A model generated the notes under the pieces. It worked only from the letters and a program-made list of their open reading frames with translations, made no database searches and was not told the DNA's origin. A stretch of DNA of 64,000 nucleotides, taken from Synechococcus sp. Lineage in GTDB: Bacteria > Cyanobacteriota > Cyanobacteriia > PCC-6307 > Cyanobiaceae. The stretch is from positions 187,798 through 251,797 of the forward strand of contig JBJBCN010000002.1 in the NCBI GenBank assembly GCA_047285805.1. Direction: 5' to 3'. Within the stretch, counting starts at the first letter, position 1. Every line of letters begins with the position of its first letter. Of this stretch, positions 11,612 through 64,000 are shown piece by piece. The position numbers and the translations under genes were made by a program.

Positions 11612-11671
11612 GGGGACGCCTGTGATGAACCGATCGTAAAAAGCGACCGTCTCTTGGGGGCGTCCGAGGGC

Positions 11672-13645: not shown

Positions 13646-13786
13646 ATTGAGCTCGGATTGGCGGGAGCTAATCGGACGTGACTGTAGGCAGAGTCTTCGG
13701 TTTTGGCCGTCCTTCGTGCACCTTTTGGAGATGGACCCCGTACAGTCAGGCCAGCACCAGAGTCCCCGGAGAGCAGGACCTCAGCA

Positions 13787-14896: not shown

Positions 14897-14906
14897 TCTC
14901 CCGTTG

Positions 14907-51051: not shown

Positions 51052-51068
51052 ACGCCCCACGCCCAGGC

Positions 51069-52112
51069 ATGCAAGACGTCGTCCAGGCCTATTACGGCAA
51101 GGAACTCCAGAGCACCGCTGACCTGAAGACCAGTGCCTGCTGCGATGCCGATGCGGTGCCGGATTGGTTGAAGCCCCTGCTCAGTCGGGTCCATCCGGAA
51201 GTCAGCAGTCGCTACTATGGCTGCGGCCTGGTTTGTCCGCTGCTGCTGAAAGGCTGCCGTGTCCTTGACCTAGGCAGCGGCAGTGGTCGCGATGTCTATC
51301 TGCTCTCCCAGTTGGTGGGGGCCGGCGGCGAGGTGGTCGGTGTGGACATGACCCCAGAGCAGCTCGCGGTGGCTCGGGAGTACCTCCCCTTCCACGCCGA
51401 GCAATTCGGTTACGCCAATGTCAGCTTCCTCGAGGGCCAGATCGAGCGTCTCGAGGAGCTCGACCTGGAGCCCGGCAGCTTTGACGTCATCGTCAGCAAC
51501 TGTGTTCTGAATCTCTCCACCGACAAGCCCGCTGTCTTACGCGGCATTCAGCGGCTGCTCAAGCCCGGCGGCGAGTTCTATTTCTCTGACGTCTACGTCG
51601 ATCGACGCCTGCCGGAAGCGGTGCAAAGCCATCCGGTGCTCTATGGCGAATGCCTTGGCGGCGCGCTCTACTGGAATGACTTCCTGCGGATGGCCCGCGG
51701 GGCGGCTTTCACGGATCCGCGTCTGGTGAGCGATCGGCCGCTGGAGATCACCGAGCCCCAACTAGCGGCGTTGGTGGGGGAGGCCCGCTTTTATTCGGCG
51801 ACCTACCGGCTCTTCAACATCCCCGAACTCGAGGACGCCTGTGAAGACCACGGTCAGGCTGTCCTCTACCGGGGCTCCATCGACCAGGCGCCCACCCGCC
51901 TGGCGTTCGACAAACACCACAGCATCGAAGTCGACAAGGTCTTCCCGGTTTGCGGCAACACCTATCGGATGCTGTCCCAGACCCGTTTCGCCCCCCACTT
52001 CCAGTTCATTGGTAATTTCGAGCGTCACTTCGGCCTCTTTGAAGGCTGTGGTTCAGCGATTCCCTTTGATCAGGACCGTGCGGTGCGCGGAGCAGCCGCC
52101 AGCTGCTGCTGA
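51069..52112 (+). CDS. arsM: Arsenite methyltransferase-like (ArsM/AS3MT family)
   Basis: YYGCG, VLDLGSGSGRD, GVDMT..QL, SNCV.NL, GECLGGA, C-terminal CC. Confidence 0.75.
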   Translation: MQDVVQAYYGKELQSTADLKTSACCDADAVPDWLKPLLSRVHPEVSSRYYGCGLVCPLLLKGCRVLDLGSGSGRDVYLLSQLVGAGGEVVGVDMTPEQLAVAREYLPFHAEQFGYANVSFLEGQIERLEELDLEPGSFDVIVSNCVLNLSTDKPAVLRGIQRLLKPGGEFYFSDVYVDRRLPEAVQSHPVLYGECLGGALYWNDFLRMARGAAFTDPRLVSDRPLEITEPQLAALVGEARFYSATYRLFNIPELEDACEDHGQAVLYRGSIDQAPTRLAFDKHHSIEVDKVFPVCGNTYRMLSQTRFAPHFQFIGNFERHFGLFEGCGSAIPFDQDRAVRGAAASCC

Positions 52113-52945
52113 TGGCCGCCGCGCCGGGGCCCTTCAGCGTCAATGAGCGTTGCATTGACTGCGGCACCTGCTGGCAATTCGATCCTCTGCACTTCGCCCC
52201 CACCGGCCGCTGCGCCGAGGTCATTCGCCAGCCCGAGGGGGCGGCGGAAACGCATCAGGCTCTGTTGGCCCTGCAGGCCTGTCCGGTGGCGGCTATCGGC
52301 ACGACAGCGGAGTTGCGGCGGCTGACCCCAAGCGATGGCTTTCCTGCTCTGGTCACCCGCCATGCAGCTGGAGAGGTCTACTACTGCGGCTGGGCGTCAC
52401 GCCGCAGTTTCGGGGCCAGCAGCTGGCTCGTGGTTCGGCCCGAAGGCAACGTCCTGATCGATTCGCCCCGTTGGAGTGCTCCCTTGGCTCGGCGCATCGC
52501 TGCCTTGGGCGGGCTTGCAGCCCTGGTGTTCACCCATCGCGACGACGTGGCCGACCACCAGCGCTGGGCCAAGGCTTTTGGTTGCAGCCGTTGGATTCAC
52601 CAGGCCGACGCCGATGCTGCGCCAGACACGGAGCATCGGGTCCCGGGATCCGATGCGGTCACCCTCGATGGGGCGTTGCAGTTGATTCCCTGCTCTGGCC
52701 ACACGGCTGGGTCGATGTCGGTCCTCTTGGGCGAACACCGCTCGGTGCTCTTCAGTGGTGATCACCTCTGGTGGCGCCCTGAACAAGCGGTGCTGGTGGC
52801 TTCGGAGCGTTATTGCTGGTGGGATTTCCAGGAGCAGCTCCGCTCGGTGGAGCGCTTGCAGGAGCTGGATGTGACCTGGCTGCTCCCCAGCCACGGCCAC
52901 GCCCACGCGTTTGCTCCCGCTGAGTGGCGCGCCGCTGTCCAGTAG
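52112..52945 (+). CDS. Ferredoxin-MBL fold hydrolase fusion
   Basis: CIDCGTC...CPV then THRDDVADH, GHT.GS, GDH, PSHG. Confidence 0.85.
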   Translation: MAAAPGPFSVNERCIDCGTCWQFDPLHFAPTGRCAEVIRQPEGAAETHQALLALQACPVAAIGTTAELRRLTPSDGFPALVTRHAAGEVYYCGWASRRSFGASSWLVVRPEGNVLIDSPRWSAPLARRIAALGGLAALVFTHRDDVADHQRWAKAFGCSRWIHQADADAAPDTEHRVPGSDAVTLDGALQLIPCSGHTAGSMSVLLGEHRSVLFSGDHLWWRPEQAVLVASERYCWWDFQEQLRSVERLQELDVTWLLPSHGHAHAFAPAEWRAAVQ

Positions 52946-53140: not shown

Positions 53141-54127
53141 CTACCGGTCCGTGGCTCCTCCCCGGGAACCGATCTCCCCTGTCACCCAATAACGCACCCG
53201 CTCGGGATGGCTCTGGAGGTAGAAATCGACCGCGGTTTGGGCCGTTCCCTGATGGGCTTGCAGGAGGACCGCGGCCAGCTCCGTATCAGGAATCCGGAAG
53301 CGCGTCAGGAAGTCCGTCACCGAAGGGGCGATGGCACTGAGGTCTTGGCGGCCGACGGCGTGGATCCATTCCGTCCCCCCAAAGGCCCGTTTGGGATCCT
53401 CAAGAAAGCGCAGCTTGTAGCGGGCGAACATCCAGTGGGGCGTCCAGCTGGTGACGATCAGCCAACGCTGCTCACGGATGGCCTGGTCCAGCACAGCAGT
53501 CATCGCGGCACTGCTGGAGGCCATGAGGCGCATGTCCCCAAGGCCGTAGTCCTTCAGGGCGACTTGGGAGAGTTGATTGAGGCCTGAGCCGGGATCGATT
53601 CCCTGAACGTGGTTGTTGAAGCGTGCGGCGACCGAGGGTTGGCGCAAGTCGGCGATGCTCCTGAGGACTTGGGGGTCGACATAGTCTGGGACGACCCAGC
53701 CCAAGCGACCGGAGTACATCGGACCGAGGTCCAGGACCCGATCCCGGACCCGCTTCCAGTAGTCCTGATGGGTCAAGGGCAACCAGGCCATCAACATCAA
53801 ATCCAGATCGCCTCGGGCCACGGAGGCGTATTGGATGCCGATGTCGGCCAGCACCCGCTCCACAGGCCAATCGAGGTGGGTCTCAATCAGCTGCTTGGCC
53901 ATCAGGCTGATGACTTCGGCATCCGCCCAGGGCGACCAGCCCAGGCGCAAGGGGCGACGTGAGACTCCCCCTCCCGTTGGCTGCGCTGGAGGACCAGACC
54001 CTGTCTGGCTGGGCTCAGGCGCCCCTGGGCGCCGGCTCAACTGGACCATGCTGGCCAGGGACAGTCCGGCGACCCCCAGTCCTGCGGTGAGTGCCGCACG
54101 CCGCGTCAGCCGTGGTGCGTCACTCAT
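53141..54127 (-). CDS. proX: Glycine betaine ABC transporter substrate-binding protein
   Basis: Tat-like TRR signal, GWSPW, LMAWLP.TH, GIDPGSG, W.PHWMF. Confidence 0.88.
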   Translation of the reverse strand: MSDAPRLTRRAALTAGLGVAGLSLASMVQLSRRPGAPEPSQTGSGPPAQPTGGGVSRRPLRLGWSPWADAEVISLMAKQLIETHLDWPVERVLADIGIQYASVARGDLDLMLMAWLPLTHQDYWKRVRDRVLDLGPMYSGRLGWVVPDYVDPQVLRSIADLRQPSVAARFNNHVQGIDPGSGLNQLSQVALKDYGLGDMRLMASSSAAMTAVLDQAIREQRWLIVTSWTPHWMFARYKLRFLEDPKRAFGGTEWIHAVGRQDLSAIAPSVTDFLTRFRIPDTELAAVLLQAHQGTAQTAVDFYLQSHPERVRYWVTGEIGSRGGATDR

Positions 54128-54996
54128 TGGCCTCTCCTCCAATGGCTGGGGGAAAGTCCTTGGCTTAGGCGGTCCAGGATCACCGCCAAGATCACCACGG
54201 CGATGCCGCCTTCAAAGCCGAGCCCCACATCGAGCTGCTGGATGCCACGCAGCACCACATCACCCAAGCCACCACCGCCAATCATCGAGGTGATCACCAC
54301 CATCGAGAGGGCCAACATGATCGTCTGGTTGATACCGCTCATCACGGTGGGCAAGGCGTTCGGGAGCTGCACCATCCAAAGCAGTTGAAGATCCGTGCAG
54401 CCAAAGGAGCGGCCCGCCTCCACCAAATCAGCCGGCACCTGGCGAATCCCCAGGTGGGTCAGCCGGACGACCGGAGGCATCGCGAAAATCAACGTGGCGA
54501 TGATCGCGGGAACGGCTCCCGTGCTGAAGAGCATCACCGCCGGGATCAAATAGACAAAAGCCGGCATGGTCTGCATGAGGTCCAGCGCCGGGCGTAGCAG
54601 TCGCCAAATCCAGAGCTGACGCGTTCCCAGAACACCGAGGGGAAATCCCAGCAGCAGAGCCAAGAGGGAGGAGGCCAGCACTAGGGCCAGGGTGTCCACC
54701 ATGGGATCCCACAGCCCCAGGGCTAAGACAAGGTTCAAGCCCAGCAGGCTGAAGAGGGCAAAGCCACCGCCGACCAGGCGCCATCCCGCAAGGGCAACCC
54801 CCACGGCAAACAGCCAGGGTGCCGGCAGGGCCAGGCTCCAGCCCAGTGCGCTCGCCAAGGTCTGGATGCCCTGTTGAACAACACCAAACAATCCCTGGCC
54901 ATGGTTGAGCAACCACTCCACCGCGGCATCAACGCTCTGGCCGACGGGCCCGGCCTGCTCAAGGCTTGCGATGAGAGGTGAGAAGGAGCAGCTCAT
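54124..54996 (-). CDS. proW: Glycine betaine ABC transporter permease
   Basis: LD.MQTMPAFVYLIP, EA..SFG, NQTIMLALSMVV. Confidence 0.92.
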   Translation of the reverse strand: MSCSFSPLIASLEQAGPVGQSVDAAVEWLLNHGQGLFGVVQQGIQTLASALGWSLALPAPWLFAVGVALAGWRLVGGGFALFSLLGLNLVLALGLWDPMVDTLALVLASSLLALLLGFPLGVLGTRQLWIWRLLRPALDLMQTMPAFVYLIPAVMLFSTGAVPAIIATLIFAMPPVVRLTHLGIRQVPADLVEAGRSFGCTDLQLLWMVQLPNALPTVMSGINQTIMLALSMVVITSMIGGGGLGDVVLRGIQQLDVGLGFEGGIAVVILAVILDRLSQGLSPSHWRRGQ

Positions 54997-56129
54997 CAGA
55001 CACCCTCCCGCAGGGTCTCCAGCAGCCGCCGGGGCGTGACAACACCCAGCAGCCGCTTCTGGTGATCAAGAACCGGAGTAGGCCATGGGTTCCGAGCGAC
55101 GGCGGGGATGGCGTCGTTGACCAGAGATTTGGACTCAAGCGCGCCTGTGGCTTCGGCCTGGATCCACCCGTCCTGGGGGCTAAGGATCCCCAGGAATTGC
55201 CCCGATGGGTTCAGGGCGAAACACAGCTGCTGATGGCCCCGGTCCGCGGGATCTGCCCCATCGGGCAGGACCAGGGTCTGAGTGCAGGGCTCGCGGATCT
55301 GCTCGAGGTTCAGGACGGAACCCCGGTCGACGCCCTTGAAGAAGGCTCGAACCTCGTGGCTGGCTGGCGCCGTGAGCAGCTCTAGGGGAGTCCCGCATTG
55401 GAGGACCTGCCCCGATTGCATTAGCGCGACGCGATCGCCAATGCGAATGGCCTCATCGAGGTCATGGGAGATGAAGACCACCGTGCGTCGCTGTTCCGCC
55501 TGCAGATCCAGCAGAAGGTCCTGCATGTCCCTGCGGATCAGGGGATCGAGGGCGGAGAAGGCCTCATCCATCAACAGGATGGGGGGATCGAGTGCCAGGG
55601 CCCGGGCCAAGCCCACCCGTTGCTGCATGCCCCCGGAGAGTTGCGCCGGTTTCAGGTGCTGCTGCTGTCCTAGACCTACGCGCTCCAGTGCCCTTTTGGC
55701 CGGAGCCAACCGCTTGGCCCTGGGCAGCCCTGCGACTTCGAGCCCAAAGGCCGCATTGTCGAGAACGCTCCGCTGGGGGAAGAGCGCGAACGATTGGAAC
55801 ACCATGGCCATGGCTTGCCGGCGCAGGCGGTTGAGTTCGCGTTTGGAGAGGTCGGACAGGTTCTGACCGCGGACTGCGACGGATCCCGAGCTGGGTTGGA
55901 TCAGTCCATTAATCATCCGCAACAGGGTCGATTTGCCTGAGCCAGAGAGGCCCATGACTACAAAAACTTCGCCCGGTTCGATCGCTAGGGATACCTGCTG
56001 GACGGCGGCAGCGGATTGGCCTGGGAATTGTTTGGAGAGGGCGTCGAGCGTGATCGCTGAAGACACGGTTCTCCGACCCACTTTTTTAAACGCTAGCCAT
56101 GCATGAGTAGGAGCGCAGGTGTGACCCAT
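54996..56129 (-). CDS. proV: Glycine betaine ABC transporter ATPase
   Basis: VMGLSGSGKS, LSGGMQQRVGLARAL, LMDEAFSALDPLIR. Confidence 0.93.
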   Translation of the reverse strand: MGHTCAPTHAWLAFKKVGRRTVSSAITLDALSKQFPGQSAAAVQQVSLAIEPGEVFVVMGLSGSGKSTLLRMINGLIQPSSGSVAVRGQNLSDLSKRELNRLRRQAMAMVFQSFALFPQRSVLDNAAFGLEVAGLPRAKRLAPAKRALERVGLGQQQHLKPAQLSGGMQQRVGLARALALDPPILLMDEAFSALDPLIRRDMQDLLLDLQAEQRRTVVFISHDLDEAIRIGDRVALMQSGQVLQCGTPLELLTAPASHEVRAFFKGVDRGSVLNLEQIREPCTQTLVLPDGADPADRGHQQLCFALNPSGQFLGILSPQDGWIQAEATGALESKSLVNDAIPAVARNPWPTPVLDHQKRLLGVVTPRRLLETLREGV

Positions 56130-56386
56130 GAACTTAGGTCTTTAGCAAGTTCAAACATTTGCTCGGATGGCCTTTGCTCACTTTGATGTCGGCGACAGCA
56201 GGACACGTGTGTTTTGCAACAGGGCCCGCTTTGCGCTGACAGCCATGGTGCTCATCGATAGGTTGCGGCCATGGCGCACTTCATGGCTTTGTGACGTGTG
56301 TCCGGAGGCCTCTTTTGAGGTGATCCCCCCAGCCCTCTTGCTGAGCTCTGAACGGTCTGCGTCTGTCAGTGGCTCCCCCGGTTTGA

Positions 56387-57259
56387 ATGACGACATCTCA
56401 TCGCACCAAGACCTCGGCGGCCCATCGGCCCAAGTCCGCGGGGGCGAAGGATGAACAGCGTTTCGGTGCGGTCCCCGAAGCCGTTCGGGAGACCGATCAC
56501 TATCAACAGGAATACATCGAGCAATTTGCAGATCGTTGGGACCGGCTGATTGATTGGGAGGCCAGAGCCCAGGCTGAAGGTGATTTTTATATCCGCATCC
56601 TGCGGGAGCATGGTGCGAAATCGGTACTCGATGTCGCCACGGGGACAGGCTTCCACTCGATTCGACTCCTGCAGGAGGGGTTCGATGTGGTCAGCGCCGA
56701 CGGCAGTCCCAACATGTTGGCGCGGGCATTTCGTAATGCTCGCGACCGCAACCAGCTGTTGAGGACGGCCCAGGCCGATTGGCGATTTTTGAACCGTGAT
56801 ATTCACGGAACATTCGATGCGGTGATTTGCCTGGGTAACTCGTTCACCCATCTCTTTCGCGAGAAGGATCGTCGTAAATCCCTGGCTGAGTACTACGCCG
56901 TCTTGAAGCACAATGGTCTTCTGATTCTTGACCACCGCAACTACGACCGCCTCTTAGAAGGTGGTGCCGCGGTGAAGCAAGGCAAGGGAACGGTGTATTG
57001 CGGAGAAGATGTTTCCGTGAGCCCTGATTGTGTCGATGAGGGCTTGGCACGCTTTCGCTACGCCTTCAGTGATGGAAGCACTTTCCACCTGAATATGTTC
57101 CCGCTCCGCTATGGCTATGTGCGCCGACTGATGCGGGAAGTTGGCTTTCAAAAGATCACCAGCTACGGGGACTATCAGCGCAGCAAGGACGATCCCGATT
57201 TCTACGCCCATGTCGCCCATAAGGCCTACGAGACCGATGGCGATACGACGGTGATCTAG
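56387..57259 (+). CDS. gsmt: Glycine/sarcosine N-methyltransferase
   Basis: Y..EY...F..RWD.LIDW, LDVATGTGFHS, CLGNSFTHL, LD.RNYD. Confidence 0.9.
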   Translation: MTTSHRTKTSAAHRPKSAGAKDEQRFGAVPEAVRETDHYQQEYIEQFADRWDRLIDWEARAQAEGDFYIRILREHGAKSVLDVATGTGFHSIRLLQEGFDVVSADGSPNMLARAFRNARDRNQLLRTAQADWRFLNRDIHGTFDAVICLGNSFTHLFREKDRRKSLAEYYAVLKHNGLLILDHRNYDRLLEGGAAVKQGKGTVYCGEDVSVSPDCVDEGLARFRYAFSDGSTFHLNMFPLRYGYVRRLMREVGFQKITSYGDYQRSKDDPDFYAHVAHKAYETDGDTTVI

Positions 57260-57261
57260 TC

Positions 57262-58113
57262 ATGACTCAGACGCACTTCTCCGCCTCAGAGCGCACCGCT
57301 TCGGACTACTACGACAGCGCCGATGCTGATTGTTTCTATGAAGAGATTTGGGGCGGTGAAGACATTCACATCGGCCTTTACGCTTCCGAGACCGAAGCCA
57401 TCGCATCGGCCAGCCAGCGTACGGTCAACGCCTTAATCGCCTTGATTGGCACCCTCCCGCGCGGGGCCACGGTCGTTGATTTGGGTTCGGGATATGGCGG
57501 TGCTGCCCGGCGCCTCGCCAAGGAGTTCGGGGCCCATGTCGAGGCGATCAATATCTCGGCCGTTGAAAACGCCCGGCACCGTCGGCTCAACCAGAGTGCC
57601 GGATTGCAGGACCAAATCCAGGTGCACGATGCCTCCTTTGAGGACGTTCCCCTGCCCTCAGGCTGTGCGGATGTGGTCTGGAGTCAGGACGCGATCCTGC
57701 ACTCCGGCAACCGTCAGCAGGTCCTCCAGGAGGCGGCGCGGTTGTTGAAGCCAGGCGGTGTGATGGTCCTCACGGATCCGATGGCCGCCGATGGGGTGGA
57801 TACAGGTTCCCTGAGCGCGATCCTCGACCGCATTCACCTGCCCGACATGGGATCACCGGATCGCTATCTAGCCTGGGCCAGTCAGGCCGGCTTGGTCCGT
57901 GAGGTCTGGCAGGACCAGACGGCGATGTTGATTCGCCATTACGGCCGCGTCCGCGAGGAGCTTCTGCGCCGAGAGCAGGAGTTGAAGACCAAGATCAGCC
58001 AGGAGTACCTCCAGCGGATGGCCGCTGGCTTGGGTCATTGGATTGATGGTGGACGCCAGGGACGTCTGAGTTGGGGGCTGATGCGCTTCCGCAAGCCTCT
58101 GCAGGAGGCCTAA
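57262..58113 (+). CDS. sdmt: Sarcosine/dimethylglycine N-methyltransferase
   Basis: YY.S.DAD.FY..IWGGEDIHIGLY, DLGSGYGG, WSQDAILHS, TDPM. Confidence 0.9.
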   Translation: MTQTHFSASERTASDYYDSADADCFYEEIWGGEDIHIGLYASETEAIASASQRTVNALIALIGTLPRGATVVDLGSGYGGAARRLAKEFGAHVEAINISAVENARHRRLNQSAGLQDQIQVHDASFEDVPLPSGCADVVWSQDAILHSGNRQQVLQEAARLLKPGGVMVLTDPMAADGVDTGSLSAILDRIHLPDMGSPDRYLAWASQAGLVREVWQDQTAMLIRHYGRVREELLRREQELKTKISQEYLQRMAAGLGHWIDGGRQGRLSWGLMRFRKPLQEA

Positions 58114-58238
58114 TGGAATCCTTCGCCGGTGCGGTTGTGATTTTTGTGGTGGGCGGTGTCGTCACCTTGGCGACCACCGTGATGGTGATTCAGGGCCATC
58201 TCCATTGGCGCGGCCGTGACCCGTGGGGGGAGGGCTAA
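58113..58238 (+). CDS. 41-aa single-TM micro-protein
   Basis: MESFAGAVVIFVVGGVVTLATTVMVIQGHLHWRGRDPWGEG; ATG overlaps the sdmt TAA; stop 3 bp before the symporter. Confidence 0.65.
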   Translation: MESFAGAVVIFVVGGVVTLATTVMVIQGHLHWRGRDPWGEG

Positions 58239-58241
58239 GCC

Positions 58242-59681
58242 ATGGCGTTCGCTCCCATGCTTGCTGTGCAGCCGTTCTTGGCCCCAGGCCTTGCCTGGGC
58301 CCTGGTGGTCATCTTCTCGGTGCTCTGGATCGCACTCGGGGTGTCCTGGGGGCAGCGCGGCTCTGGTGATGCCGATGACTACATGTTGGCCGGCCGCAAC
58401 ATCGGTTTGGCCCTTAGCACCGCAACCTTGATGGCGTCCTGGGTGACCGGCAACACCACTTTGTTGGCGCCGGAGTTTGGTTATCGGAACGGCCTCTGGG
58501 GAATGTTCAGTTACGCCCTGGCCGGTCTGGGCTTGGTCCTGTTTGCGCCATTGGCCCTACGGATCAAACACCTGATGCCCAAGGGGCGCACCAGCGGTGA
58601 CTTCATTCGCCTCCGCTACGGCCGCGCGACCTGGTGGGTCTTCATGGTGATCACCGCCATCTACACCCTCGGTTTCCTGATGACCCAGGCGATGGGAGCG
58701 GGGATCCTGCTGGAGGCCCTTTCGGGTTTTGACTACCGCCTAGGGATGGTCGTAGTGATTGGCGTCTCGACGATCTATACCCTCTATGGCGGGATGCGCG
58801 CCGTTGTGGGAACGGACTTCATTCAGTCCCTCTTGATAATGGGGCTGCTGGTTTTGGTTGCCGTGTTGGCGCTGCAGCAGTTCCCGGTTCCTGAGCTCCA
58901 TCGCGCTTTGGTCGAGGAACATCCGGAGCGGCTGAATTTGCTTTTGCCGGCGGGTTTGTTGATTGCTTGGAACTCCGCCCTCTTCTCTATGGGCGAGGTC
59001 TTCCACAACAACATATGGTGGTCAAGGGTATTCTCCAGTCGTGCCTCCGTCGTCTTTAGCTCGTTCGTGCTCGGCGGCTTGGCATGGATGACGGTGCCTT
59101 TGGTGACTGGCTCCATCGGCCTGGTGGCGTTGGCTCAGTCGGTGGATTTGCCCCAGGTGAACATGCTGTTCCCGGTTGTGGCCTCCCAGTTGCTTGGGGC
59201 GGGGGGTGCGGCCTTGGTCTTTGTGGTCGTCTTTGCCTCGTTGACCTCAACATTGGATTCGCTATTGGCTTCGACGGCGGATTTGGTAGCCGAAGACGTG
59301 GTCTTCAAGCTGCTGAATCCCAATTTGAGTGATGCCCAATTGCGGCAGGCCACGCGCCTTGTGGTTCTGGGGTTGGGGCTTTTGACCTTGCTGCTGTCGT
59401 GGCCGCGCCTGGATTCCTTGGCGTCCGTTCTCTTCTTCACCGGTGCCCTTGTGGCTTCCACGATCTGGCCGGTGGCCTACGGCCTCTATTGGCGCAGTGC
59501 GAACCGGTGGGCCGCCATTGCCGCGATGGTCTCCGGCAGTGCCGTGGGCCTGGCTGCGTATGTCCTGATCGCGCCCTACTGCGCGGCGTTGCTCTCCGCA
59601 GCGGTCTCGGCGGCGGTGATGGCTGTGGGCACTCAGTTTCAGCCCGAGCGCTTCAACTGGCTCACCTTGAAGGAGGGATAA
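58242..59681 (+). CDS. Sodium:solute symporter family transporter
   Basis: About 13 TM segments, YMLAGRN.G, YTL.GG..AVV.TD..Q, S..STLDS.L. Confidence 0.88.
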   Translation: MAFAPMLAVQPFLAPGLAWALVVIFSVLWIALGVSWGQRGSGDADDYMLAGRNIGLALSTATLMASWVTGNTTLLAPEFGYRNGLWGMFSYALAGLGLVLFAPLALRIKHLMPKGRTSGDFIRLRYGRATWWVFMVITAIYTLGFLMTQAMGAGILLEALSGFDYRLGMVVVIGVSTIYTLYGGMRAVVGTDFIQSLLIMGLLVLVAVLALQQFPVPELHRALVEEHPERLNLLLPAGLLIAWNSALFSMGEVFHNNIWWSRVFSSRASVVFSSFVLGGLAWMTVPLVTGSIGLVALAQSVDLPQVNMLFPVVASQLLGAGGAALVFVVVFASLTSTLDSLLASTADLVAEDVVFKLLNPNLSDAQLRQATRLVVLGLGLLTLLLSWPRLDSLASVLFFTGALVASTIWPVAYGLYWRSANRWAAIAAMVSGSAVGLAAYVLIAPYCAALLSAAVSAAVMAVGTQFQPERFNWLTLKEG

Positions 59682-59684
59682 GTC

Positions 59685-59909
59685 ATGGCACGGTTTCGGA
59701 TGACAACCCGCTGGGCCCTCACCCTTGCCCTGTTGGCTGTGCTGATGCCTGTGGCCAGGGCGGGAGAAGCGAGCGCGCCACCGCGCTGGTTGGCAGATCT
59801 TCCATTGCTGCAGGTTTTGATCTACGGAAGCGTTGCGGGCTTGGCTCTTTCGGTGCTGATCCTGTTGATCCTTTGGTGGAAAGAGTGGAGGCGCGGTGAT
59901 GTTTGGTGA
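59685..59909 (+). CDS. Small membrane protein
   Basis: Signal-like N-terminus, one TM, WWKEWRRGDVW tail; 3 bp after the symporter. Confidence 0.65.
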   Translation: MARFRMTTRWALTLALLAVLMPVARAGEASAPPRWLADLPLLQVLIYGSVAGLALSVLILLILWWKEWRRGDVW

Positions 59910-60079
59910 TCTCTAAGACTTTATAAATTCGTTGCTTGCACTTTCTTGAACCTCTGGCTAGTAATCGAGAAGGCAGGAGCAACTGAACCAAGCTTCACCG
60001 CTGTCCTCGCAGAGGCACTTCTTTTGACTGCGCTTATCAGGAGTCCTTCTCCCTGATGTCTCAGGTCTGATTTCCCGAA

Positions 60080-61195
60080 ATGGTCATCTCTTCTCCCTCT
60101 TCTCATCTTGTCTCAGAACGCTCTATGCGTTTCAAGCCGATGGGGCCAGATGTCTACGGGGCGACTTCTCCTAAGGACCTTCTTTTAGCGATTGAAGAAG
60201 ATGGTGATGCACTTCATGACTTGGCCGACCAGCACGTAATATCTGTCCAACCATTCAAGGCGAATACACTGCTTCAATTGTTCCGTCTAGCCGCGAAATA
60301 CGAGAGCAATCCTGAGCGCTATACCTCACATAATACACCCCTAAAAGGCAAGATTCTTATAAATGCTTTTTATGAGCCTAGTACGCGTACAAGGCTGTCG
60401 TTTGATAGCGCTTGGCATCGCCTGGGTGGCGACTCTATTAATATAACAGACCGAAGTACAACTGGCTTGGCCAAGGGTGAGTCTTATGAAGATGTTGCGC
60501 ATATGTTTAATAATTATGGCGACTGTATTGTTCTTAGGGACGGAGACTCGAGCGCTGTCTATTCGATGGCGGATACTCTTCGCATTCCGATTATTAACGC
60601 AGGTAATGGGATTGATGAACACCCCACTCAGGCAATGGCCGACCTCTATACGATTCTAAAGTGGAGGCCTTCTTTGGTTGCTTCTGAGGTCTCTCCTGGA
60701 GAGCGGGTGAGAATCGGAGTCGTTGGAATCCCAAGTCGTATGCGAACTGTCCGCTCGCTTCTGCGGATTCTTGTTAAATTTCCTCAAATTGTTGAGGAGC
60801 TTGTGCTTATACATGACCCTGCCAAAAACGCTGCCGAGGAATTGTTCGACCCCGGGCAATTGGAGGAGTTACAGCAGGTTGGAGTCAATGTGCGTTGCAC
60901 CGGAGATCTTCAGGGTGAAATCCCTGGGCTTGATGTCATCTATATCAATGCAATCGCTTGGGTGGGTGATAGTTATGAGGTGCATGGTCATTCCTTCCGT
61001 CTGACCAGAGATCTGCCGTACAAGCCAAATGCAATTGTTCTGCACCCTCTGGCTCGAGGCCCGGAGCTGAGCACCTGCCTCGATAACACCCCCCACAACT
61101 GGTATTTCAGTCAGGCCCGGGGTGCGGTCTTCCTGCGGATGGCTCTGCTCACCTGCATGGTGGATCGCACCAACCGGGTCATGGATGTGATCTGA
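60080..61195 (+). CDS. ATCase/OTCase-superfamily carbamoyltransferase (PyrB-like paralog)
   Basis: FYEPSTRTRLSF, KGES, INAGNG..EHPTQ, HPL.R; the Asp-binding TRxQ motif is replaced by NAIA. Confidence 0.85.
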   Translation: MVISSPSSHLVSERSMRFKPMGPDVYGATSPKDLLLAIEEDGDALHDLADQHVISVQPFKANTLLQLFRLAAKYESNPERYTSHNTPLKGKILINAFYEPSTRTRLSFDSAWHRLGGDSINITDRSTTGLAKGESYEDVAHMFNNYGDCIVLRDGDSSAVYSMADTLRIPIINAGNGIDEHPTQAMADLYTILKWRPSLVASEVSPGERVRIGVVGIPSRMRTVRSLLRILVKFPQIVEELVLIHDPAKNAAEELFDPGQLEELQQVGVNVRCTGDLQGEIPGLDVIYINAIAWVGDSYEVHGHSFRLTRDLPYKPNAIVLHPLARGPELSTCLDNTPHNWYFSQARGAVFLRMALLTCMVDRTNRVMDVI

Positions 61196-61207
61196 GGAGG
61201 AACGCGT

Positions 61208-63256
61208 ATGTGTGGAATCGGCGGTGTCTTCAGCACCACGGCGGATCAAGCCGTTGATCCCCAGCTTCTGGTCAACATGGCCGCGATCCAGGAGCATCGC
61301 GGTCCCGATGGTTTTGGCTATCGCACAGTCGATGGATGCGGAGTGGGCTTCTGCCATGCCCGCCTGTCGATCATTGACCTCAATGAGACCAGGGCACGCC
61401 AACCGTTCTTAAGCGGAGAGCCGGGGTCGGGTGCGCGGGTCCTGATGGCCCACAACGGCGAGTTCTATGACTTCCAGCGGATTCGCGCCGACCTGACGGC
61501 CCGCGGTGTTCGCTTCAGCAGCAAGAGCGATTCCGAAATCCTGCTGCGCCTCTACCAACAGCAGGGCTTGCAGGCGACCCTGCCGCAACTGCGCGGTGAA
61601 TTCGCCTTCGCGCTTTATGACGAGGCCGGAGATACGTTGCATCTCGTCCGGGATCGTTTCGGTATCAAGCCCCAGTACTGGACGATCACTCCCCAGGGCT
61701 TGGTCTTCGGTTCAGAGCTGAAGGTGTTGTTTGCCCATCCGGCGGTGGAGCGCCGCTTCACCTCGGAAGGGCTCTTCCATCAGTTGATGCAAACCATGGT
61801 CCCCGGAACCACCGCCTTTGAGGGGATCCGTCAGGTGCCGCCCGGTCACGGCATCAGCGTGCGCCGCCGCAACGGCAGCCTGCAGGTCGAGACCTGGAAG
61901 TACTGGGATATGGACTTCCCCCGCCAGGGCGAGCGGGACAGCAGCAAGACCGAGTCCGACCACATCGATGCGATTCGTGCGGCGCTGCTCGAAGCGGTGG
62001 AGCTGCGGATGGTCGCCGATGTGCCCGTGGGTTGTTACCTCTCGGGAGGCATCGACAGTTGCTCCATCCTCGGCCTGGCCGCCGCCGTCAGCCAGAGCCC
62101 GGTCAAGGCGTTCACCATTGGTTTCGATGACGCCCGCTACGACGAGTCGCCGATCGCCAAGGAGATGGCCGACGCCACGGCGGCCGAGCAGGACGTGATG
62201 CGTCTCTCGGGTAGGGAGCTCTACGGCTGGATGGAGCGCACCCTCTGGCACACCGAGCGGACGATCTACAACACCTTGGCGGTGGCGAAATTCCTGATGA
62301 GCCGCCATGTCAACCAGGTCAACTACAAGGTGGTGATGACTGGGGAGGGCTCCGATGAGCTCTTCGGTGGCTATCCGGCCTTCCGACGCGACATGTTCCT
62401 GCACGGTCTCCAGGACCTGCCTGAGCAGGACCGTCAGGCCTGGGAGGACTTGTTGCAGCAGTCCAATGCCCTGGTGCAGGGGGCAATGTTGGCGGCGGAT
62501 CAAGTGGATGATCCGGACCTCGATGCGGTCGTTGGTTTCACCCCCAGTTGTCTCCAGCCCTGGTTGGCCTGCGCGCCGCTGGTGCCGGCCCTGCTCGCGG
62601 ATGCCCATCGCGAGGCCCTCTCGGGCTATTCCCCGGGCAAGGCCATTGCCAAGACCTTGGATGCGGAACAACTCGAGGGACGCCACGCCCTCGATAAGGC
62701 CCAGTACGTCTGGATCAAGACGATGTTGGAGGGCCAAATCCTGACCTGGGGCGGTGACCGGGTCGATATGGCGAATTCCATGGAGGCGCGTCCGGCCTTC
62801 TTGGATCACCATCTGGCCGCGGCGGCGGTTCAGGTGCCGCCGGAGTTGCGGATTAAGGGGAAGACGGAGAAGTACGTCCTGCGGGAGGCCATGGCCGGTC
62901 TGCTGCCGGAGGTGCTCTACAAGCGCGAGAAATTTGCCTTCATGGCCCCGCCGGCCCATACCGAGCTCGAGAAGTGGGAGCAGATGAAGCAGCTGGCGAA
63001 CGACTATCTCAGTGATGAGGCGATCGAAGCCGCGGGACTGCTCAGCGTGGATGGCGTTCGGGCCCTCTTCGCCCGCCATGGCGACCCGGCGACCACCGAT
63101 GCCGATCGGGTGCAGATGGACGCCATGATCAACCATCTTCTCGGCGCGCAGATGCTGCACAGGATGTTCATTGCCGCGGACGTGCCGGCACAGGCCCGGG
63201 CCAAGGCCGATGCCCTGGGTTGGCATCCCGCTCGGGAGGCTGCTGCCGTTTGCTGA
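61208..63256 (+). CDS. asnB: Asparagine synthase (glutamine-hydrolysing)-type amidotransferase
   Basis: MCGI Ntn Cys, HRGPDG, HNGEFY, RDRFGIKP, LSGGIDS, TGEGSDELFGGY, E.RPAFLD. Confidence 0.88.
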   Translation: MCGIGGVFSTTADQAVDPQLLVNMAAIQEHRGPDGFGYRTVDGCGVGFCHARLSIIDLNETRARQPFLSGEPGSGARVLMAHNGEFYDFQRIRADLTARGVRFSSKSDSEILLRLYQQQGLQATLPQLRGEFAFALYDEAGDTLHLVRDRFGIKPQYWTITPQGLVFGSELKVLFAHPAVERRFTSEGLFHQLMQTMVPGTTAFEGIRQVPPGHGISVRRRNGSLQVETWKYWDMDFPRQGERDSSKTESDHIDAIRAALLEAVELRMVADVPVGCYLSGGIDSCSILGLAAAVSQSPVKAFTIGFDDARYDESPIAKEMADATAAEQDVMRLSGRELYGWMERTLWHTERTIYNTLAVAKFLMSRHVNQVNYKVVMTGEGSDELFGGYPAFRRDMFLHGLQDLPEQDRQAWEDLLQQSNALVQGAMLAADQVDDPDLDAVVGFTPSCLQPWLACAPLVPALLADAHREALSGYSPGKAIAKTLDAEQLEGRHALDKAQYVWIKTMLEGQILTWGGDRVDMANSMEARPAFLDHHLAAAAVQVPPELRIKGKTEKYVLREAMAGLLPEVLYKREKFAFMAPPAHTELEKWEQMKQLANDYLSDEAIEAAGLLSVDGVRALFARHGDPATTDADRVQMDAMINHLLGAQMLHRMFIAADVPAQARAKADALGWHPAREAAAVC

Positions 63257-63265
63257 TGTTCAGCC

Positions 63266-63289
63266 CGTAATGGTCACAACCGTTACGGG
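63266..63289 (+). other. Stem-loop between asnB and the M20 hydrolase
   Basis: ccgtaatggt-caca-accgttacgg; no T tract. Confidence 0.35.
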
Positions 63290-63346
63290 AGCTCTGGGAG
63301 CTCTCCTCGATCGTGGGGGTGCTCTGTTAGATGTGAAGGTCTGAGG

Positions 63347-64000
63347 TTGGTTCTCTCTGCCCCGGGCGTTGGTACCCACACCACGACTGCACAGCGTCGG
63401 CCTACTCCTAATGCGATGCGCCTGCTGGCGTCCCTGGAGGCCATGGCCGAGGTGGGACTGCAGCCCGATGGTTCGATCTGTCGCCGGGGCTTCACGGCTG
63501 AAGACCGTCAGGGCCGCGAACGACTGAGTGAATGGATGATTGATGCCGGCCTGAGCCTGCGCATCGATGCCGCTGGCAATTTAATTGGCAGGCTTGAGGG
63601 TTCGGCCCCCAGCCTTCCAGCCCTCGTCACCGGCTCGCATCTCGACACGGTCCCAACGGGGGGGCGCTACGACGGCACCCTCGGTGTCTTGGCGGGCCTG
63701 GAATTGGTTCGCGCGCTTCAGGACGCCTCGCTCCAGCTCCGCCACCCCTTTGAGTTGATCGTCTTTGCCGACGAGGAGTCCACGATGGTGGGCTGCAAGG
63801 GCATGGCCGGCACCGCCAGCGCTGACCCCAGCGACTACACCACCAGCAACGGTGTGCCGATTGAGCGAAACCTGGCGCGTCTCGGGGGGGATTGGGACCG
63901 GCTTGCCAGCGCCGCCCGCAGTGATGACGCAATTGCAGCCTTCATCGAACTGCATGTGGAGCAGGGGGCCGTACTCGAGTGGCGTGGAGACAGCATTGGT
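63347..64000 (+). CDS. M20 Zn-dependent hydrolase, N-carbamoyl-L-amino-acid amidohydrolase family (partial)
   Basis: Manual translation: D.AGNL.GR, TGSHLDTVPTGGRYDG.LGV, F.DEE, FIELHVEQG; runs off window; start TTG 63347 or ATG 63416. Confidence 0.88.
   Translation, partial: MVLSAPGVGTHTTTAQRRPTPNAMRLLASLEAMAEVGLQPDGSICRRGFTAEDRQGRERLSEWMIDAGLSLRIDAAGNLIGRLEGSAPSLPALVTGSHLDTVPTGGRYDGTLGVLAGLELVRALQDASLQLRHPFELIVFADEESTMVGCKGMAGTASADPSDYTTSNGVPIERNLARLGGDWDRLASAARSDDAIAAFIELHVEQGAVLEWRGDSIG

What the first reader, a model, noticed from the sequence alone, without database searches (positions are those of the whole stretch)
53141..64000. Osmolyte supercluster with a candidate carbamoyl-amino-acid-amide pathway
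proVWX diverges from a co-oriented run: gsmt, sdmt, micro-TM, symporter, micro-TM, carbamoyltransferase, Gln amidotransferase, N-carbamoylase. The first five genes are coupled by 1-3 bp gaps or overlaps. Carbamoylation plus carboxyl amidation is the chemistry needed for N-carbamoyl-L-glutamine-1-amide, a known compatible solute whose genes I do not know to be assigned; AsnB-type AsnO performs the analogous amidation in NAGGN synthesis. The M20 enzyme could recycle the nitrogen. Alternative: catabolism of an imported ureido compound (e.g. N-carbamoylsarcosine) feeding sarcosine to betaine synthesis. Similar pyrB/asnB/hydrolase sets have been noted in marine Synechococcus, but I know of no demonstrated function.
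Basis: partly seen in the sequence, partly recalled or inferred. Interest (0 to 1): 0.76.

Follow-up and report, generated by a model that had tools for sequence, protein, structure and literature searches.

The report
Ureido-amide solute module in osmolyte cluster
A marine Synechococcus has placed a widespread, untested gene module (a urea-type transporter, two enzymes that would add a carbamoyl and an amide group to an amino acid, and two that would remove them) between its glycine-betaine and glucosylglycerate genes, which supports but does not prove that the module makes and recycles a nitrogen-rich salt-protection solute such as N-carbamoyl-glutamine amide, whose genes are unknown.

Summary
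The order is proXWV (minus strand), then gsmt, sdmt, micro-TM, a DUR3-like symporter, micro-TM, a PyrB-like carbamoyltransferase (CT), a Gln-dependent AsnB-like amidotransferase and an M20 N-carbamoylase. Beyond base 64000 come a DUF1028 Ntn-hydrolase and the glucosylglycerate genes.

The symporter and both micro-proteins belong to the CT module, not to the betaine genes. The same module recurs in about 20% of sampled Cyanobiaceae, including Prochlorococcus. It also recurs in 6% of sampled Gammaproteobacteria and in 49 of 55 species of the GTDB order holding Thioalkalivibrio and Ectothiorhodospira.

Adjacency to gsmt/sdmt is confined to four species of this genus. Elsewhere in Synechococcus the module lies between the nitrate and urease genes.

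The CT keeps its carbamoyl-phosphate and alpha-carboxylate ligands but has Ala at both aspartate side-chain ligands. The genome has separate pyrB and argF genes.

I confirmed the module in Ectothiorhodospira mobilis, which NCBI treats as the same species as E. marismortui, the only known producer of N-carbamoyl-glutamine amide. There it sits beside sucrose synthase.

The best reading is a make, import and break system for an N-carbamoyl amino-acid amide solute, confidence 0.45. The cluster is listed in the literature (pseudo-ATCase; the pyrB2-asnB-pydC eCAG) but has never been tested.

The parts
53141..54142 (-). proX, glycine-betaine-type substrate-binding protein
   Evidence: Pfam OpuAC, E 6.6e-58.
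54124..54996 (-). proW, ABC permease
   Evidence: Pfam BPD_transp_1, E 3.1e-26.
54996..56129 (-). proV, ABC ATPase
   Evidence: Pfam ABC_tran, E 2.5e-34.
56130..56386 (.). divergent intergenic region between proV and gsmt
   Evidence: Sequence read. It has no sigma-70-like site, no NtcA box and no Rfam match.
56387..57259 (+). gsmt (gbmt1), glycine/sarcosine N-methyltransferase
   Evidence: NCBIfam NF051855, 428 bits, above the cutoff of 350.
57262..58113 (+). sdmt (gbmt2), sarcosine/dimethylglycine N-methyltransferase-like
   Evidence: NF041675, 315 bits, best hit but below the cutoff of 550. The gap after gsmt is 2 nt.
58113..58238 (+). micro-TM 1, 41 aa with one TM helix; first gene of the ureido-amide module
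   Evidence: Its ATG overlaps the sdmt stop (TAATG). tblastn finds it upstream of the SSF gene in other Synechococcus and Cyanobium at 43-62% identity. Gammaproteobacteria have a 143-aa bitopic protein at this position.
58242..59681 (+). SSS-family symporter, DUR3-like
   Evidence: Pfam SSF. The best solved relatives are DUR3 urea-proton symporters, E 4.5e-29, against 5e-9 for the next family. Cyanorak names the cluster's symporter ureP/DUR3. It sits next to CT in Synechococcus, Cyanobium and Gammaproteobacteria.
59685..59909 (+). micro-TM 2, 74 aa: signal-like N-terminus, one TM helix, C-terminal ...RRGDVW
   Evidence: A conserved micro-protein lies between SSF and CT in cyanobacteria and Gammaproteobacteria. 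It always ends in [RK]x[GK]x[VIL]W.
59910..60079 (.). 170-nt low-GC spacer (GC 0.48) before CT
   Evidence: No Rfam family matched. It is part of the low-GC patch that also covers most of CT.
60080..61195 (+). PyrB-like carbamoyltransferase (pyrB2, 'pseudo-ATCase') with a non-aspartate acceptor
   Evidence: It keeps STRTR, KGES, R105, HPTQ and R167. TRxQ reads NAIA and HPLP reads HPLA. It is one of three OTCace_N genes in the genome; the other two are canonical argF and pyrB.
61208..63256 (+). long AsnB-type glutamine-dependent amidotransferase, 682 aa
   Evidence: It has the N-terminal MCGI nucleophile and the SGGIDS PP-loop. Pfam GATase_6/7 and Asn_synthase match. TIGR03104 (NAGGN AsnO) scores 288, below the cutoff of 570. 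It always lies directly downstream of CT.
63347..64000 (+). [quoted passage not shown]
   Evidence: The full gene is 426 aa (L001:4145-5425) and would end at window coordinate 64627. Best NCBIfam hits are ErtE (N-carbamyl-L-glutamate amidohydrolase), 424 bits against a cutoff of 520, and NF006771, 413 bits against a cutoff of 399. [quoted passage not shown] Genes beyond the window, given as window-equivalent coordinates: DUF1028 64624-65343(+), gpgP 65340-66212(-), GH13 66119-67855(-), gpgS 67771-69174(+).

Best explanation
The window joins three osmolyte systems: ProVWX with GSMT/SDMT for glycine betaine, a conserved 'ureido-amide' module, and the glucosylglycerate genes.

The module most likely makes, re-imports and breaks down a small neutral N-carbamoyl amino-acid amide. 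[quoted passage not shown]

Proposed steps:
1. The PyrB-like CT transfers the carbamoyl group of carbamoyl phosphate to the alpha-amino group of a neutral amino acid, probably glutamine.
2. The AsnB-like enzyme adenylates the alpha-carboxylate and amidates it with ammonia from glutamine.
3. The DUR3-like symporter, with its two micro-TM partners, takes the ureido compound up or recaptures it.
4. For breakdown, the DUF1028 Ntn hydrolase removes an amide. In Ectothiorhodospira an isochorismatase-family amidase stands in its place.
5. The M20 enzyme removes the carbamoyl group and returns the amino acid, CO2 and NH3.

Shown here: gene content and order, the motifs, the conservation and the distribution.

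Inferred: every substrate, the direction of each reaction, and the osmolyte role.
For: 1. The CT keeps the carbamoyl-phosphate ligands and the alpha-carboxylate Arg. Both aspartate side-chain ligands are Ala, inside a family-invariant YIN-I-W motif. A true pyrB and argF exist elsewhere in the genome.
2. CT and AsnB are always adjacent. This holds in 83 loci from cyanobacteria and Proteobacteria and in 15 of 16 fetched gammaproteobacterial regions, 14 of them Ectothiorhodospirales. They form the universal core, which fits a two-step synthesis.
3. AsnB has the intact Cys nucleophile and PP-loop, so it is an ATP- and Gln-consuming synthetase. That is hard to fit into a catabolic route.
4. Two unrelated amidohydrolases sit next to the M20 gene. 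One is DUF1028, with an invariant M-T-[FY]-S-I N-terminus in 49 of 49 copies. The other is an isochorismatase-family protein in E. mobilis.
5. Prochlorococcus has the four enzymes without the transporter, so the substrate is made inside the cell.
6. Osmolyte neighbourhoods arose independently. Here they are betaine and glucosylglycerate genes. In E. mobilis they are sucrose synthase and a PfkB kinase.
7. The module is present in 49 of 55 species of the order of Thioalkalivibrio and Ectothiorhodospira. These include E. mobilis, which NCBI treats as the same species as E. marismortui. E. marismortui is the reported producer of the solute (PMC1224877).
8. Most named hosts I recognise as marine or halophilic taxa. 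Cyanobium ATX 6A2 has the module and is one of two 'freshwater' strains that carry ggpS (PMC9361551). [quoted passage not shown] A Red Sea single-cell genome carries it.
9. The symporter's closest solved relatives carry urea, which fits a ureido substrate.
10. The genome has no carbamate kinase.
Against: - No metabolite, expression or enzyme datum exists for any member.
- In most Synechococcus the module lies between the nitrate and urease genes. Dore 2023 ties it to N- and P-poor water. A solute with four N atoms is an odd investment there.
- Putting the make and break enzymes in one operon implies a futile cycle unless they are regulated after transcription.
- The solute has been reported from one organism only, yet the module is in hundreds of species. 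From memory, NMR studies of Thioalkalivibrio reported betaine and ectoine, not this solute.
- The M20 does not reach the ErtE cutoff, and the M20s of cyanobacteria and Proteobacteria are only 31-40% identical.
- Adjacency to gsmt/sdmt is limited to one small clade, so it carries little weight as guilt by association.
- The co-occurrence statistic is not corrected for phylogeny.
- Presence in E. mobilis discriminates weakly, because nearly the whole order has the module.
Confidence: 0.45

Rival explanations
1. This is a nitrogen-scavenging module. The DUR3-like symporter imports urea or a dissolved ureido compound such as an N-carbamoyl amino acid, a ureide or a hydantoin derivative. The M20, the DUF1028 protein and a phosphorolytic CT release NH3 or carbamoyl phosphate for assimilation.
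For: - The usual Synechococcus location is between narB/napA and the urease genes.
- Cyanorak names the transporter ureP/DUR3, and DUR3 is the best solved relative.
- Dore 2023 finds the eCAG in N- and P-depleted warm waters.
- The one characterised 'pseudo-ATCase', Rubrobacter UGTCase, works catabolically on allantoate (PMC4016543).
- The M20 passes the NF006771 'allantoate amidohydrolase' subfamily cutoff.
Against: - An ATP- and Gln-consuming AsnB-type synthetase with an intact glutaminase Cys is the most conserved partner of CT. It has no role in a catabolic route.
- Prochlorococcus keeps the four enzymes but has no transporter.
- Many Proteobacteria have SSF-CT-AsnB with no hydrolase nearby.
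- The genome has no carbamate kinase.
- The marine group has HPLA and AIA motifs, not the H(T/S)LP of UGTCase.
- In this genome the transporter is translationally coupled to sdmt, not to the urease genes.
Confidence: 0.2
2. CT and AsnB make a ureido or amide metabolite that is not primarily an osmolyte. It could be a nitrogen reserve or buffer. It could be built on a different amino acid. Or AsnB could amidate the ureido carbonyl rather than the carboxylate, giving a guanidino compound in the manner of argininosuccinate synthetase or GMP synthetase.
For: - The same enzyme logic applies as in the best explanation.
- The AsnB synthetase domain belongs to the PP-loop ATP-pyrophosphatase superfamily (established knowledge). 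Other members of that superfamily activate ureido oxygens.
- The nitrogen-island context in most Synechococcus fits a nitrogen-buffer role.
- Nothing in the sequence fixes the acceptor as glutamine.
Against: - The hydrolases that accompany the pair are of the N-carbamoyl-amino-acid amidohydrolase and amidase types. They are not ureohydrolases, which would be expected for guanidino turnover.
- Two independent osmolyte-gene neighbourhoods exist.
- Most named hosts I recognise as marine or halophilic taxa.
Confidence: 0.2
3. The module is an alternative pyrimidine biosynthesis or recycling route, as suggested for the asnB-pyrB2-pydC eCAG by Dore et al. 2023.
For: The genes are annotated as aspartate carbamoyltransferase and beta-ureidopropionase in Cyanorak and by PGAP.
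Against: - The CT lacks both aspartate beta-carboxylate ligands and scores below every ATCase equivalog cutoff: TIGR00670 193 against 237, NF002032 180 against 263.
- A canonical pyrB is present.
- No dihydroorotase partner is in the cluster.
- AsnB, DUF1028 and the symporter are left unexplained.
Confidence: 0.05
4. One reading: an imported ureido compound such as N-carbamoylsarcosine is catabolised to feed sarcosine into betaine synthesis.
For: In this genome the sdmt stop overlaps the start of the first module gene. The whole run is co-oriented.
Against: - 59 of 81 CT-positive Cyanobiaceae genomes lack gsmt.
- Adjacency occurs in only 4 species of one genus.
- Prochlorococcus and most Proteobacteria have the module without gsmt/sdmt next to it.
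- The AsnB synthetase is unexplained.
Confidence: 0.03

Closest known systems
'Pseudo-ATCase' marine subgroup and its synteny block (Barba, Dutoit, Legrain & Labedan 2013, BMC Syst Biol 7:99, PMC4016543)
   Same: The motif signature is the same: STRT, HPTQ, HPLA and AIA in place of RxQ. So are the neighbours: a Na+ symporter, an AsnB-type gene (called 'putative asparaginase' in the paper) and a HyuC-like N-carbamoyl-amino-acid amidohydrolase. Synechococcus WH 8102 is one of their examples.
   Different: The paper assigned no function to the marine subgroup. Here the block includes two micro-TM genes and DUF1028, and it is fused to betaine and glucosylglycerate genes. The only characterised pseudo-ATCase is Rubrobacter ureidoglycine carbamoyltransferase. 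It has H(T/S)LP motifs, a carbamate-kinase neighbour and a catabolic role. The paper's table and text number the subgroups differently.
Syn-eCAG_003 / Pro-eCAG_007 (asnB, pyrB2, pydC; islands Syn_GI119 / Pro_GI020) of Dore et al. 2023, ISME J 17:720, PMC10119275
   Same: The gene set matches by annotation: ureP/DUR3, a conserved membrane protein, pyrB2, asnB, pydC/amaB and an Ntn-hydrolase-domain protein.
   Different: The paper proposes an 'alternative pyrimidine biosynthesis / N recycling' role without any test. The usual position is beside the urease genes. In this genome the module sits on another contig from napA and urease, inside the osmolyte cluster.
NAGGN (N-acetylglutaminylglutamine amide) osmolyte system, asnO-ngg
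   Same: The logic is the same. The alpha-amino group is capped, and an AsnB-type Gln-dependent amidotransferase converts the terminal glutamine carboxylate to a 1-amide. The result is a neutral solute.
   Different: The cap is a carbamoyl group added by a transcarbamylase, not an acetyl group added by a GNAT/ATP-grasp Ngg. The cluster has no Ngg-type gene. The AsnB-like protein scores 288 bits against TIGR03104, below the cutoff of 570.
Aspartate carbamoyltransferase catalytic chain (PyrB, EC 2.1.3.2)
   Same: The fold and the carbamoyl-phosphate site are shared. The best solved relatives are Arabidopsis (E 3e-42), P. abyssi (E 5e-39) and E. coli (E ~1e-38) ATCases.
   Different: R229 and Q231 are Ala, and HPLP reads HPLA. 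There is a ~45-residue N-terminal extension. All ATCase equivalog cutoffs are missed.
Hydantoinase/carbamoylase pathway enzyme HyuC/AmaB, and ErtE (N-carbamyl-L-glutamate amidohydrolase of ergothioneine catabolism)
   Same: The M20 enzyme belongs to this subfamily: TIGR01879 scores 387 against a cutoff of 204, PDB 3n5f gives E 2e-87, and ErtE is the best NCBIfam hit.
   Different: It falls below the ErtE equivalog cutoff (424 against 520). No hydantoinase or other ert gene is present.
Glycine betaine synthesis and uptake cluster gbmt1-gbmt2 / proVWX of marine Synechococcus (as in WH 8102)
   Same: proVWX is divergent from gsmt-sdmt. The GSMT model is passed above its cutoff.
   Different: Here the methyltransferase operon runs without a break into the ureido-amide module. 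This arrangement is seen only in this genus subclade.

Membership tests
Aspartate carbamoyltransferase (PyrB) | Carbamoyl-phosphate site: S-T-R-T-R, R105, H-P-x-Q | tested here: met
   STRTR, LR(D) and EHPTQ are present and invariant in 35 orthologues.
Aspartate carbamoyltransferase (PyrB) | Aspartate ligands R229 and Q231 (RxQ in the 240s loop), and HP[LG]P | tested here: not met
   The HMMER alignment to Arabidopsis and P. abyssi ATCases puts NAIA opposite TRIQ. HPLP reads HPLA. R167 is kept.
Aspartate carbamoyltransferase (PyrB) | Curated equivalog score | tested here: not met
   TIGR00670 scores 193 against 237. NF002032 scores 180 against 263. The genome has a separate pyrB with RLQ and HPGP.
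Pseudo-ATCase, marine subgroup (Barba 2013) | HPLA plus AIA/AIS/SIA motifs | tested here: met
   HPLARG and NAIAW are present. The motif table is in PMC4016543.
Pseudo-ATCase, marine subgroup (Barba 2013) | Synteny with a Na+ symporter, an AsnB-type gene and a HyuC-like amidohydrolase | tested here: met
Syn-eCAG_003 / Pro-eCAG_007 (Dore 2023) | Gene content: pyrB2, asnB, pydC, Ntn-hydrolase protein (plus ureP and a membrane protein in Synechococcus) | tested here: met
   Matched by annotation and order. The mapping to Cyanorak cluster numbers was not checked sequence by sequence.
Syn-eCAG_003 / Pro-eCAG_007 (Dore 2023) | Island position next to the urease and nitrate genes (Syn_GI119) | tested here: not met
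   In this genome napA and ureABCDE are on contig C3, and the module is on C2 next to gsmt.
NAGGN system (asnO-ngg) | AsnO equivalog (TIGR03104) | tested here: not met
   288 bits against a cutoff of 570.
NAGGN system (asnO-ngg) | Bifunctional Ngg (GNAT plus ATP-grasp) next to asnO | tested here: not met
   No such domain appears in any gene of the run.
N-carbamoyl-glutamine-amide biosynthesis (no genes known) | Genes present in the producer organism | tested here: met
   M20, an isochorismatase-like gene, CT and AsnB are present in E. mobilis (L157). Its AsnB sequence equals the NCBI E. mobilis protein WP_200180291.1. NCBI taxonomy maps 'E. marismortui' to E. mobilis. Strain DSM 4180 itself was not identified. 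The test discriminates weakly, because 49 of 55 species of the order have the module.
N-carbamoyl-glutamine-amide biosynthesis (no genes known) | The enzymes form the compound, and its pool follows salinity | not testable with these tools
   This needs enzyme assays and LC-MS or NMR.
Glutamine-dependent AsnB-type amidotransferase | N-terminal Cys nucleophile and SGGxDS PP-loop | tested here: met
   MCGIGG and CYLSGGIDS are present. TIGR01536 scores 412 against a cutoff of 267.
Ntn hydrolase (DUF1028) | Nucleophile directly after the initiator Met, and the DUF1028 fold | tested here: met
   M-T-[FY]-S-I is present in 49 of 49 orthologues. PF06267 gives E 2.5e-64. PDB 2imh gives E 1.6e-18. Catalysis itself has not been shown.
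DUR3-type urea symporter | Closest characterised relatives carry urea | tested here: inconclusive
   DUR3 chains are the best PDB hits, E 4.5e-29 in two stretches. No NCBIfam transporter equivalog cutoff is reached. The substrate is unknown.
GSMT/SDMT betaine pathway | Curated equivalog scores for both methyltransferases | tested here: inconclusive
   GSMT (NF051855) scores 428, above 350. SDMT (NF041675) scores 315, below 550, though it is the best hit by far.

The most novel reading that the evidence does not exclude
[quoted passage not shown] DUF1028 and the M20 would be the recycling branch. The DUR3-like symporter with its two micro-proteins would be a new type of ureido-solute transporter. 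That solute, or a close ureido-amide relative, would not be a curiosity of one Dead Sea phototroph. It would be an overlooked, nitrogen-rich osmolyte and nitrogen buffer in marine Synechococcus, some Prochlorococcus and many marine and soda-lake Proteobacteria.
Probability: 0.3. Interest if true: 0.85.

Novelty: new variant of a known kind. Interest (0 to 1): 0.66.

Why it matters
If this reading is right, it assigns genes to an orphan compatible solute and adds a new acceptor specificity to the transcarbamylase family. It also gives a first function to DUF1028 and to a conserved micro-protein partner of an SSS transporter.

The genes occur in about a fifth of sampled picocyanobacterial species, so the ocean's most abundant phototrophs may hold a solute that has not been looked for. 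The same genes occur in many marine heterotrophs. A four-nitrogen osmolyte made, released and re-imported by such organisms would matter for marine dissolved organic nitrogen budgets and for how metabolomes are interpreted.

The genes are short, the strains are in culture, and the predicted product has a defined mass. The question can therefore be tested directly.

This window adds one specific item. In one Synechococcus lineage the module has moved from the nitrogen island into a betaine and glucosylglycerate cluster, and it is translationally coupled to sdmt.

Tried and rejected
1. An Rfam scan of 52-64 kb at E<=1 found nothing, so there is no riboswitch in the 170-nt spacer.
2. The NtcA box GTAN8TAC has no site in the two intergenic regions. 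The three window matches are no more than chance.
3. The sigma-70 scan found 0 sites. Terminator-like sites are at the background level.
No expression or operon evidence could be obtained.
5. The two top-120 homologue lists did not reach Ectothiorhodospira. I got there instead through a class-wide genome sample, an exact-sequence name look-up and an order-wide search. The order of 'Ectothiorhodospiraceae bacterium 2226' proved to be a singleton.
6. The look-up of P0060 (Synechococcus RSCCF101) returned 'not on record'.
7. I checked whether the in-frame TGA flagged in seven Ectothiorhodospirales CT hits means pseudogenes. In the four of those genomes whose regions I fetched, residues 14-359 are open, so the TGA lies upstream of the start.
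8. The genes upstream of proX are an ArsM-like methyltransferase, a Fer4-MBL protein and others. They are not osmolyte genes, so the cluster starts at proX.
9. I considered a catabolic, ATP-yielding role for the transcarbamylase. I rejected it as the main reading because the genome has no carbamate kinase and the AsnB synthetase is universally present.
10. I did not run a structure prediction. The tools return no ligand pocket geometry, so it would not have discriminated between acceptors.

Full report
**What is there**

The window lies at C2:187798-251797 of a 2.37-Mb, 61% GC genome in three contigs. The closest named relatives of its genes are marine Synechococcus.

- proX, proW and proV lie on the minus strand (53141-56129).
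- Diverging from them are gsmt (56387-57259; NF051855 at 428 bits, above its cutoff) and sdmt (57262-58113; NF041675 is the best hit but scores below its cutoff).
- Next come a 41-aa one-helix protein (58113-58238), an SSS-family symporter (58242-59681) and a 74-aa membrane protein (59685-59909).
- A 170-nt spacer follows, then a PyrB-like carbamoyltransferase (CT, 60080-61195).
- After it are a 682-aa glutamine-dependent AsnB-type amidotransferase (61208-63256) and an M20 amidohydrolase that is cut by the window end.

I read each junction: TAG-tc-ATG, TAATG, TAA-gcc-ATG, TAA-gtc-ATG, and a 12-nt GGAGG spacer between CT and AsnB. The coupling claim is correct.

**Beyond the window**

I fetched the next 15 kb of the contig.
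- The M20 gene is complete at 426 aa. Its best NCBIfam hit is ErtE, the N-carbamyl-L-glutamate amidohydrolase (424 bits, cutoff 520). [quoted passage not shown]
- Its stop overlaps (ATGA) the start of a DUF1028 protein. The only solved relative of that protein is the uncharacterised 2imh. Its N-terminus, M-T-[FY]-S-I, is invariant in 49 orthologues, as expected of an N-terminal-nucleophile hydrolase.
- Then come the glucosylglycerate genes: gpgP, a sucrose-phosphorylase-like GH13 gene, and gpgS.
- Upstream of proX there are no osmolyte genes.

The osmolyte cluster therefore runs from proX to gpgS, about 16 kb.

**The carbamoyltransferase is not an ATCase**

- HMMER alignments to solved ATCases and a 36-sequence family alignment show that STRTR, KGES, the Arg of LR(D), HPTQ and the alpha-carboxylate Arg (MRTVRS) are kept.
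- The two aspartate side-chain ligands of E. coli PyrB, R229 and Q231, are both Ala, within a family-invariant Y-I-N-x-I-x-W motif. HPLP reads HPLA.
- All ATCase and OTCase equivalog cutoffs are missed.
- The genome holds a canonical argF (DxxxSMG, HCLP) and a canonical pyrB (RLQ, HPGP) elsewhere.
- The acceptor is therefore an alpha-amino acid whose side chain is not a short carboxylate.
- The AsnB-like protein has the MCGI nucleophile and the SGGIDS PP-loop. It is a working ATP- and Gln-dependent amidating synthetase by sequence. A second Asn_synthase gene exists elsewhere in the genome.

**The module is a conserved unit that is independent of the betaine genes**

- CT orthologues at 58-65% identity occur in Pseudoalteromonas, Thiothrix, Idiomarina and its relatives, Alteromonas, Kordiimonas and others.
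- In those organisms the order is: a 143-aa bitopic protein, SSF, a ~40-aa micro-protein, CT, AsnB. An M20 gene is often nearby.
- tblastn of the window's genes on 83 such loci gave these patterns. Synechococcus and Cyanobium have micro-TM, SSF, micro-TM, CT, AsnB, M20 and DUF1028. About 30 Prochlorococcus genomes, including MIT 9314, have CT, AsnB, M20 and DUF1028 with no transporter.
- gsmt, sdmt, proVWX and the gpg genes lie beside the module only in one closely similar Synechococcus MAG.
- The micro-protein between SSF and CT is a real family. It has one helix and a C-terminus of [RK]x[GK]x[VIL]W in both phyla.
- The best solved relatives of the symporter are DUR3 urea symporters, at E 4.5e-29 against 5e-9 for the next family.

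**Distribution**

- In an even sample of 401 genomes of the window's family, 81 carry the CT and 48 carry gsmt. 22 carry both (odds ratio 4.2, p 2e-5, not corrected for phylogeny).
- The two genes are adjacent only in four species of the window's own genus.
- In a typical Synechococcus the module sits between narB/napA/moa and the urease genes.
- In this genome those genes are on another contig. The module has therefore moved into the osmolyte cluster in this lineage.
- In an even sample of 400 Gammaproteobacteria, 24 carry the CT.

**Test of the link to the known solute**

[quoted passage not shown] No paper in the library assigns genes to it.
- I named anonymous genome hits by exact-sequence look-up. 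The CT and AsnB pair is present in 'Ectothiorhodospiraceae bacterium 2226', many Thioalkalivibrio, Thiohalophilus, and in E. mobilis, E. shaposhnikovii, E. lacustris, E. marina, E. magna, BSL-9 and PHS-1.
- 49 of 55 species of that order have the CT.
- NCBI taxonomy maps the name E. marismortui to E. mobilis.
- In E. mobilis the operon is M20, an isochorismatase-family hydrolase, CT and AsnB. Sucrose synthase and a PfkB kinase flank it.
- Two points follow. An unrelated amidase sits next to the M20 gene where cyanobacteria have DUF1028. And a second, independent osmolyte neighbourhood exists.
- The necessary condition, that the genes are present in the producer species, is met. It discriminates weakly because nearly the whole order has the module.

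**Literature**

- The cluster is not new as an observation. Barba et al. 2013 described 'pseudo-ATCases' with HPLA and AIA motifs in marine bacteria, including WH 8102, in synteny with a Na+ symporter, a 'putative asparaginase' and a HyuC-like gene. They assigned no function.
- The one characterised pseudo-ATCase is a catabolic ureidoglycine carbamoyltransferase with different motifs.
- Dore et al. 2023 list asnB-pyrB2-pydC as Pro-eCAG_007 and Syn-eCAG_003. Its neighbours are ureP/DUR3, a membrane protein and an Ntn-hydrolase protein.
- They suggest 'alternative pyrimidine biosynthesis'. [quoted passage not shown]
- A Red Sea Prochlorococcus single-cell genome, AAA795-F05, is among my loci.

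**Reading**

The universal core is CT plus AsnB, two anabolic enzymes. The hydrolases and the transporter come and go. Prochlorococcus lacks the transporter, so the substrate is made inside the cell.

The simplest scheme has these steps:
- An amino acid is N-carbamoylated by CT.
- Its carboxylate is amidated by AsnB.
- The neutral product is recaptured by the DUR3-like carrier.
- It is recycled by an amidase (DUF1028 or the isochorismatase-like protein) and by the M20 decarbamoylase.

Glutamine as the acceptor would give the known solute. This fits the loss of the positively charged side-chain ligands, but the sequence does not show it. I put 0.45 on the general make, import and break solute reading, and about 0.3 on the specific compound.

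Points against this reading:
- The nitrogen-island context elsewhere.
- The association with N-poor water.
- Make and break genes lying in one operon.
- The lack of reports of the solute outside one organism.
- The complete absence of experimental data.

The nitrogen-scavenging rival (0.2) explains the context and the transporter annotation. It does not explain the AsnB synthetase, the transporter-less Prochlorococcus version or the missing carbamate kinase. The pyrimidine and N-carbamoylsarcosine readings are poorly supported.

**Earlier notes of this scan**

Several earlier AI notes reach the same reading. I used them only as leads.
- I re-derived the two literature links, the Ectothiorhodospira presence and the isochorismatase variant myself.
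- One claim, a response to salt and nitrogen, I could not verify.
- Agreement with these notes is not independent evidence.

**Verdict**

The object is a known but functionally unassigned cluster in a new, lineage-specific osmolyte setting. It is a new variant of a known kind (a compatible-solute gene system), and it can be tested directly.

Noticed in passing
window 59910-61040: The spacer and most of the CT gene form a low-GC patch. CT has GC 0.50 and GC3 0.50, while the neighbouring genes have GC3 of 0.73-0.80. The last ~240 nt of CT return to high GC. In the closely similar MAG (L009) CT has GC 0.63 and is only 84% identical in protein, while the flanking genes are 93-99% identical. This looks like a recent recombinational replacement of the CT allele from a lower-GC lineage.
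   Followed up: partly
window 59685-59909; L005-L008, L165 and other loci, between SSF and CT: A conserved micro-protein of 39-74 aa lies between SSF and CT. It has one TM helix and an invariant C-terminal Trp, in the pattern [RK]x[GK]x[VIL]W-stop. It is found in both cyanobacteria and Gammaproteobacteria, matches no Pfam or NCBIfam family, and is probably an accessory subunit of the symporter.
   Followed up: partly
L157 (E. mobilis) 5898-15164: The module is flanked by sucrose synthase (12780-15164, +) and a PfkB sugar kinase (5898-6812, +). An isochorismatase-family hydrolase sits between M20 and CT; its best, weak hits are BiuH and RutB. About half of the Ectothiorhodospirales loci have this gene where the others have the SSF transporter.
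   Followed up: partly
G635 (a Synechococcus-group genome): C1:2535827 and C1:1682796: This genome carries two CT copies, both about 77% identical to the window's CT. The module or the gene has been duplicated.
   Followed up: no
L165/L166 4641-7995 and own genome C2:719173-723000: A conserved trio of CP_ATPgrasp, Alpha-E and transglutaminase-like genes lies next to the module in typical Synechococcus. In the window's genome the trio sits elsewhere. Its function is unknown.
   Followed up: no
L165 15868-16638 (-): A class-I GATase / peptidase C26-like gene lies between DUF1028 and ureC in typical Synechococcus. It could be a gamma-glutamyl amide hydrolase. No counterpart was found in the window's genome at E<1e-10.
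   Followed up: no
window 51048-52945: An ArsM-like SAM methyltransferase (354 aa) is followed, with overlapping stop and start, by a ferredoxin-domain / metallo-beta-lactamase fusion protein (277 aa), directly upstream of proX.
   Followed up: no
PMC4016543, Table 1 against the text and Figure 5: The table gives HPLA and AIA for 'pseudo-ATCase 1', but the text calls the marine group 'Subgroup 3'. Shi et al. 2015 give H(T/S)LP for the Rubrobacter UGTCase. The subgroup numbering in the table therefore seems reversed relative to the text.
   Followed up: partly
L029, L030, L033, L037, L038, L073 (Cyanobium-type loci): DUF1028 is inverted and lies between AsnB and M20 (DUF1028 on the minus strand, then M20 on the plus strand). 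It is retained in every case, which argues that it belongs to the module functionally.
   Followed up: no
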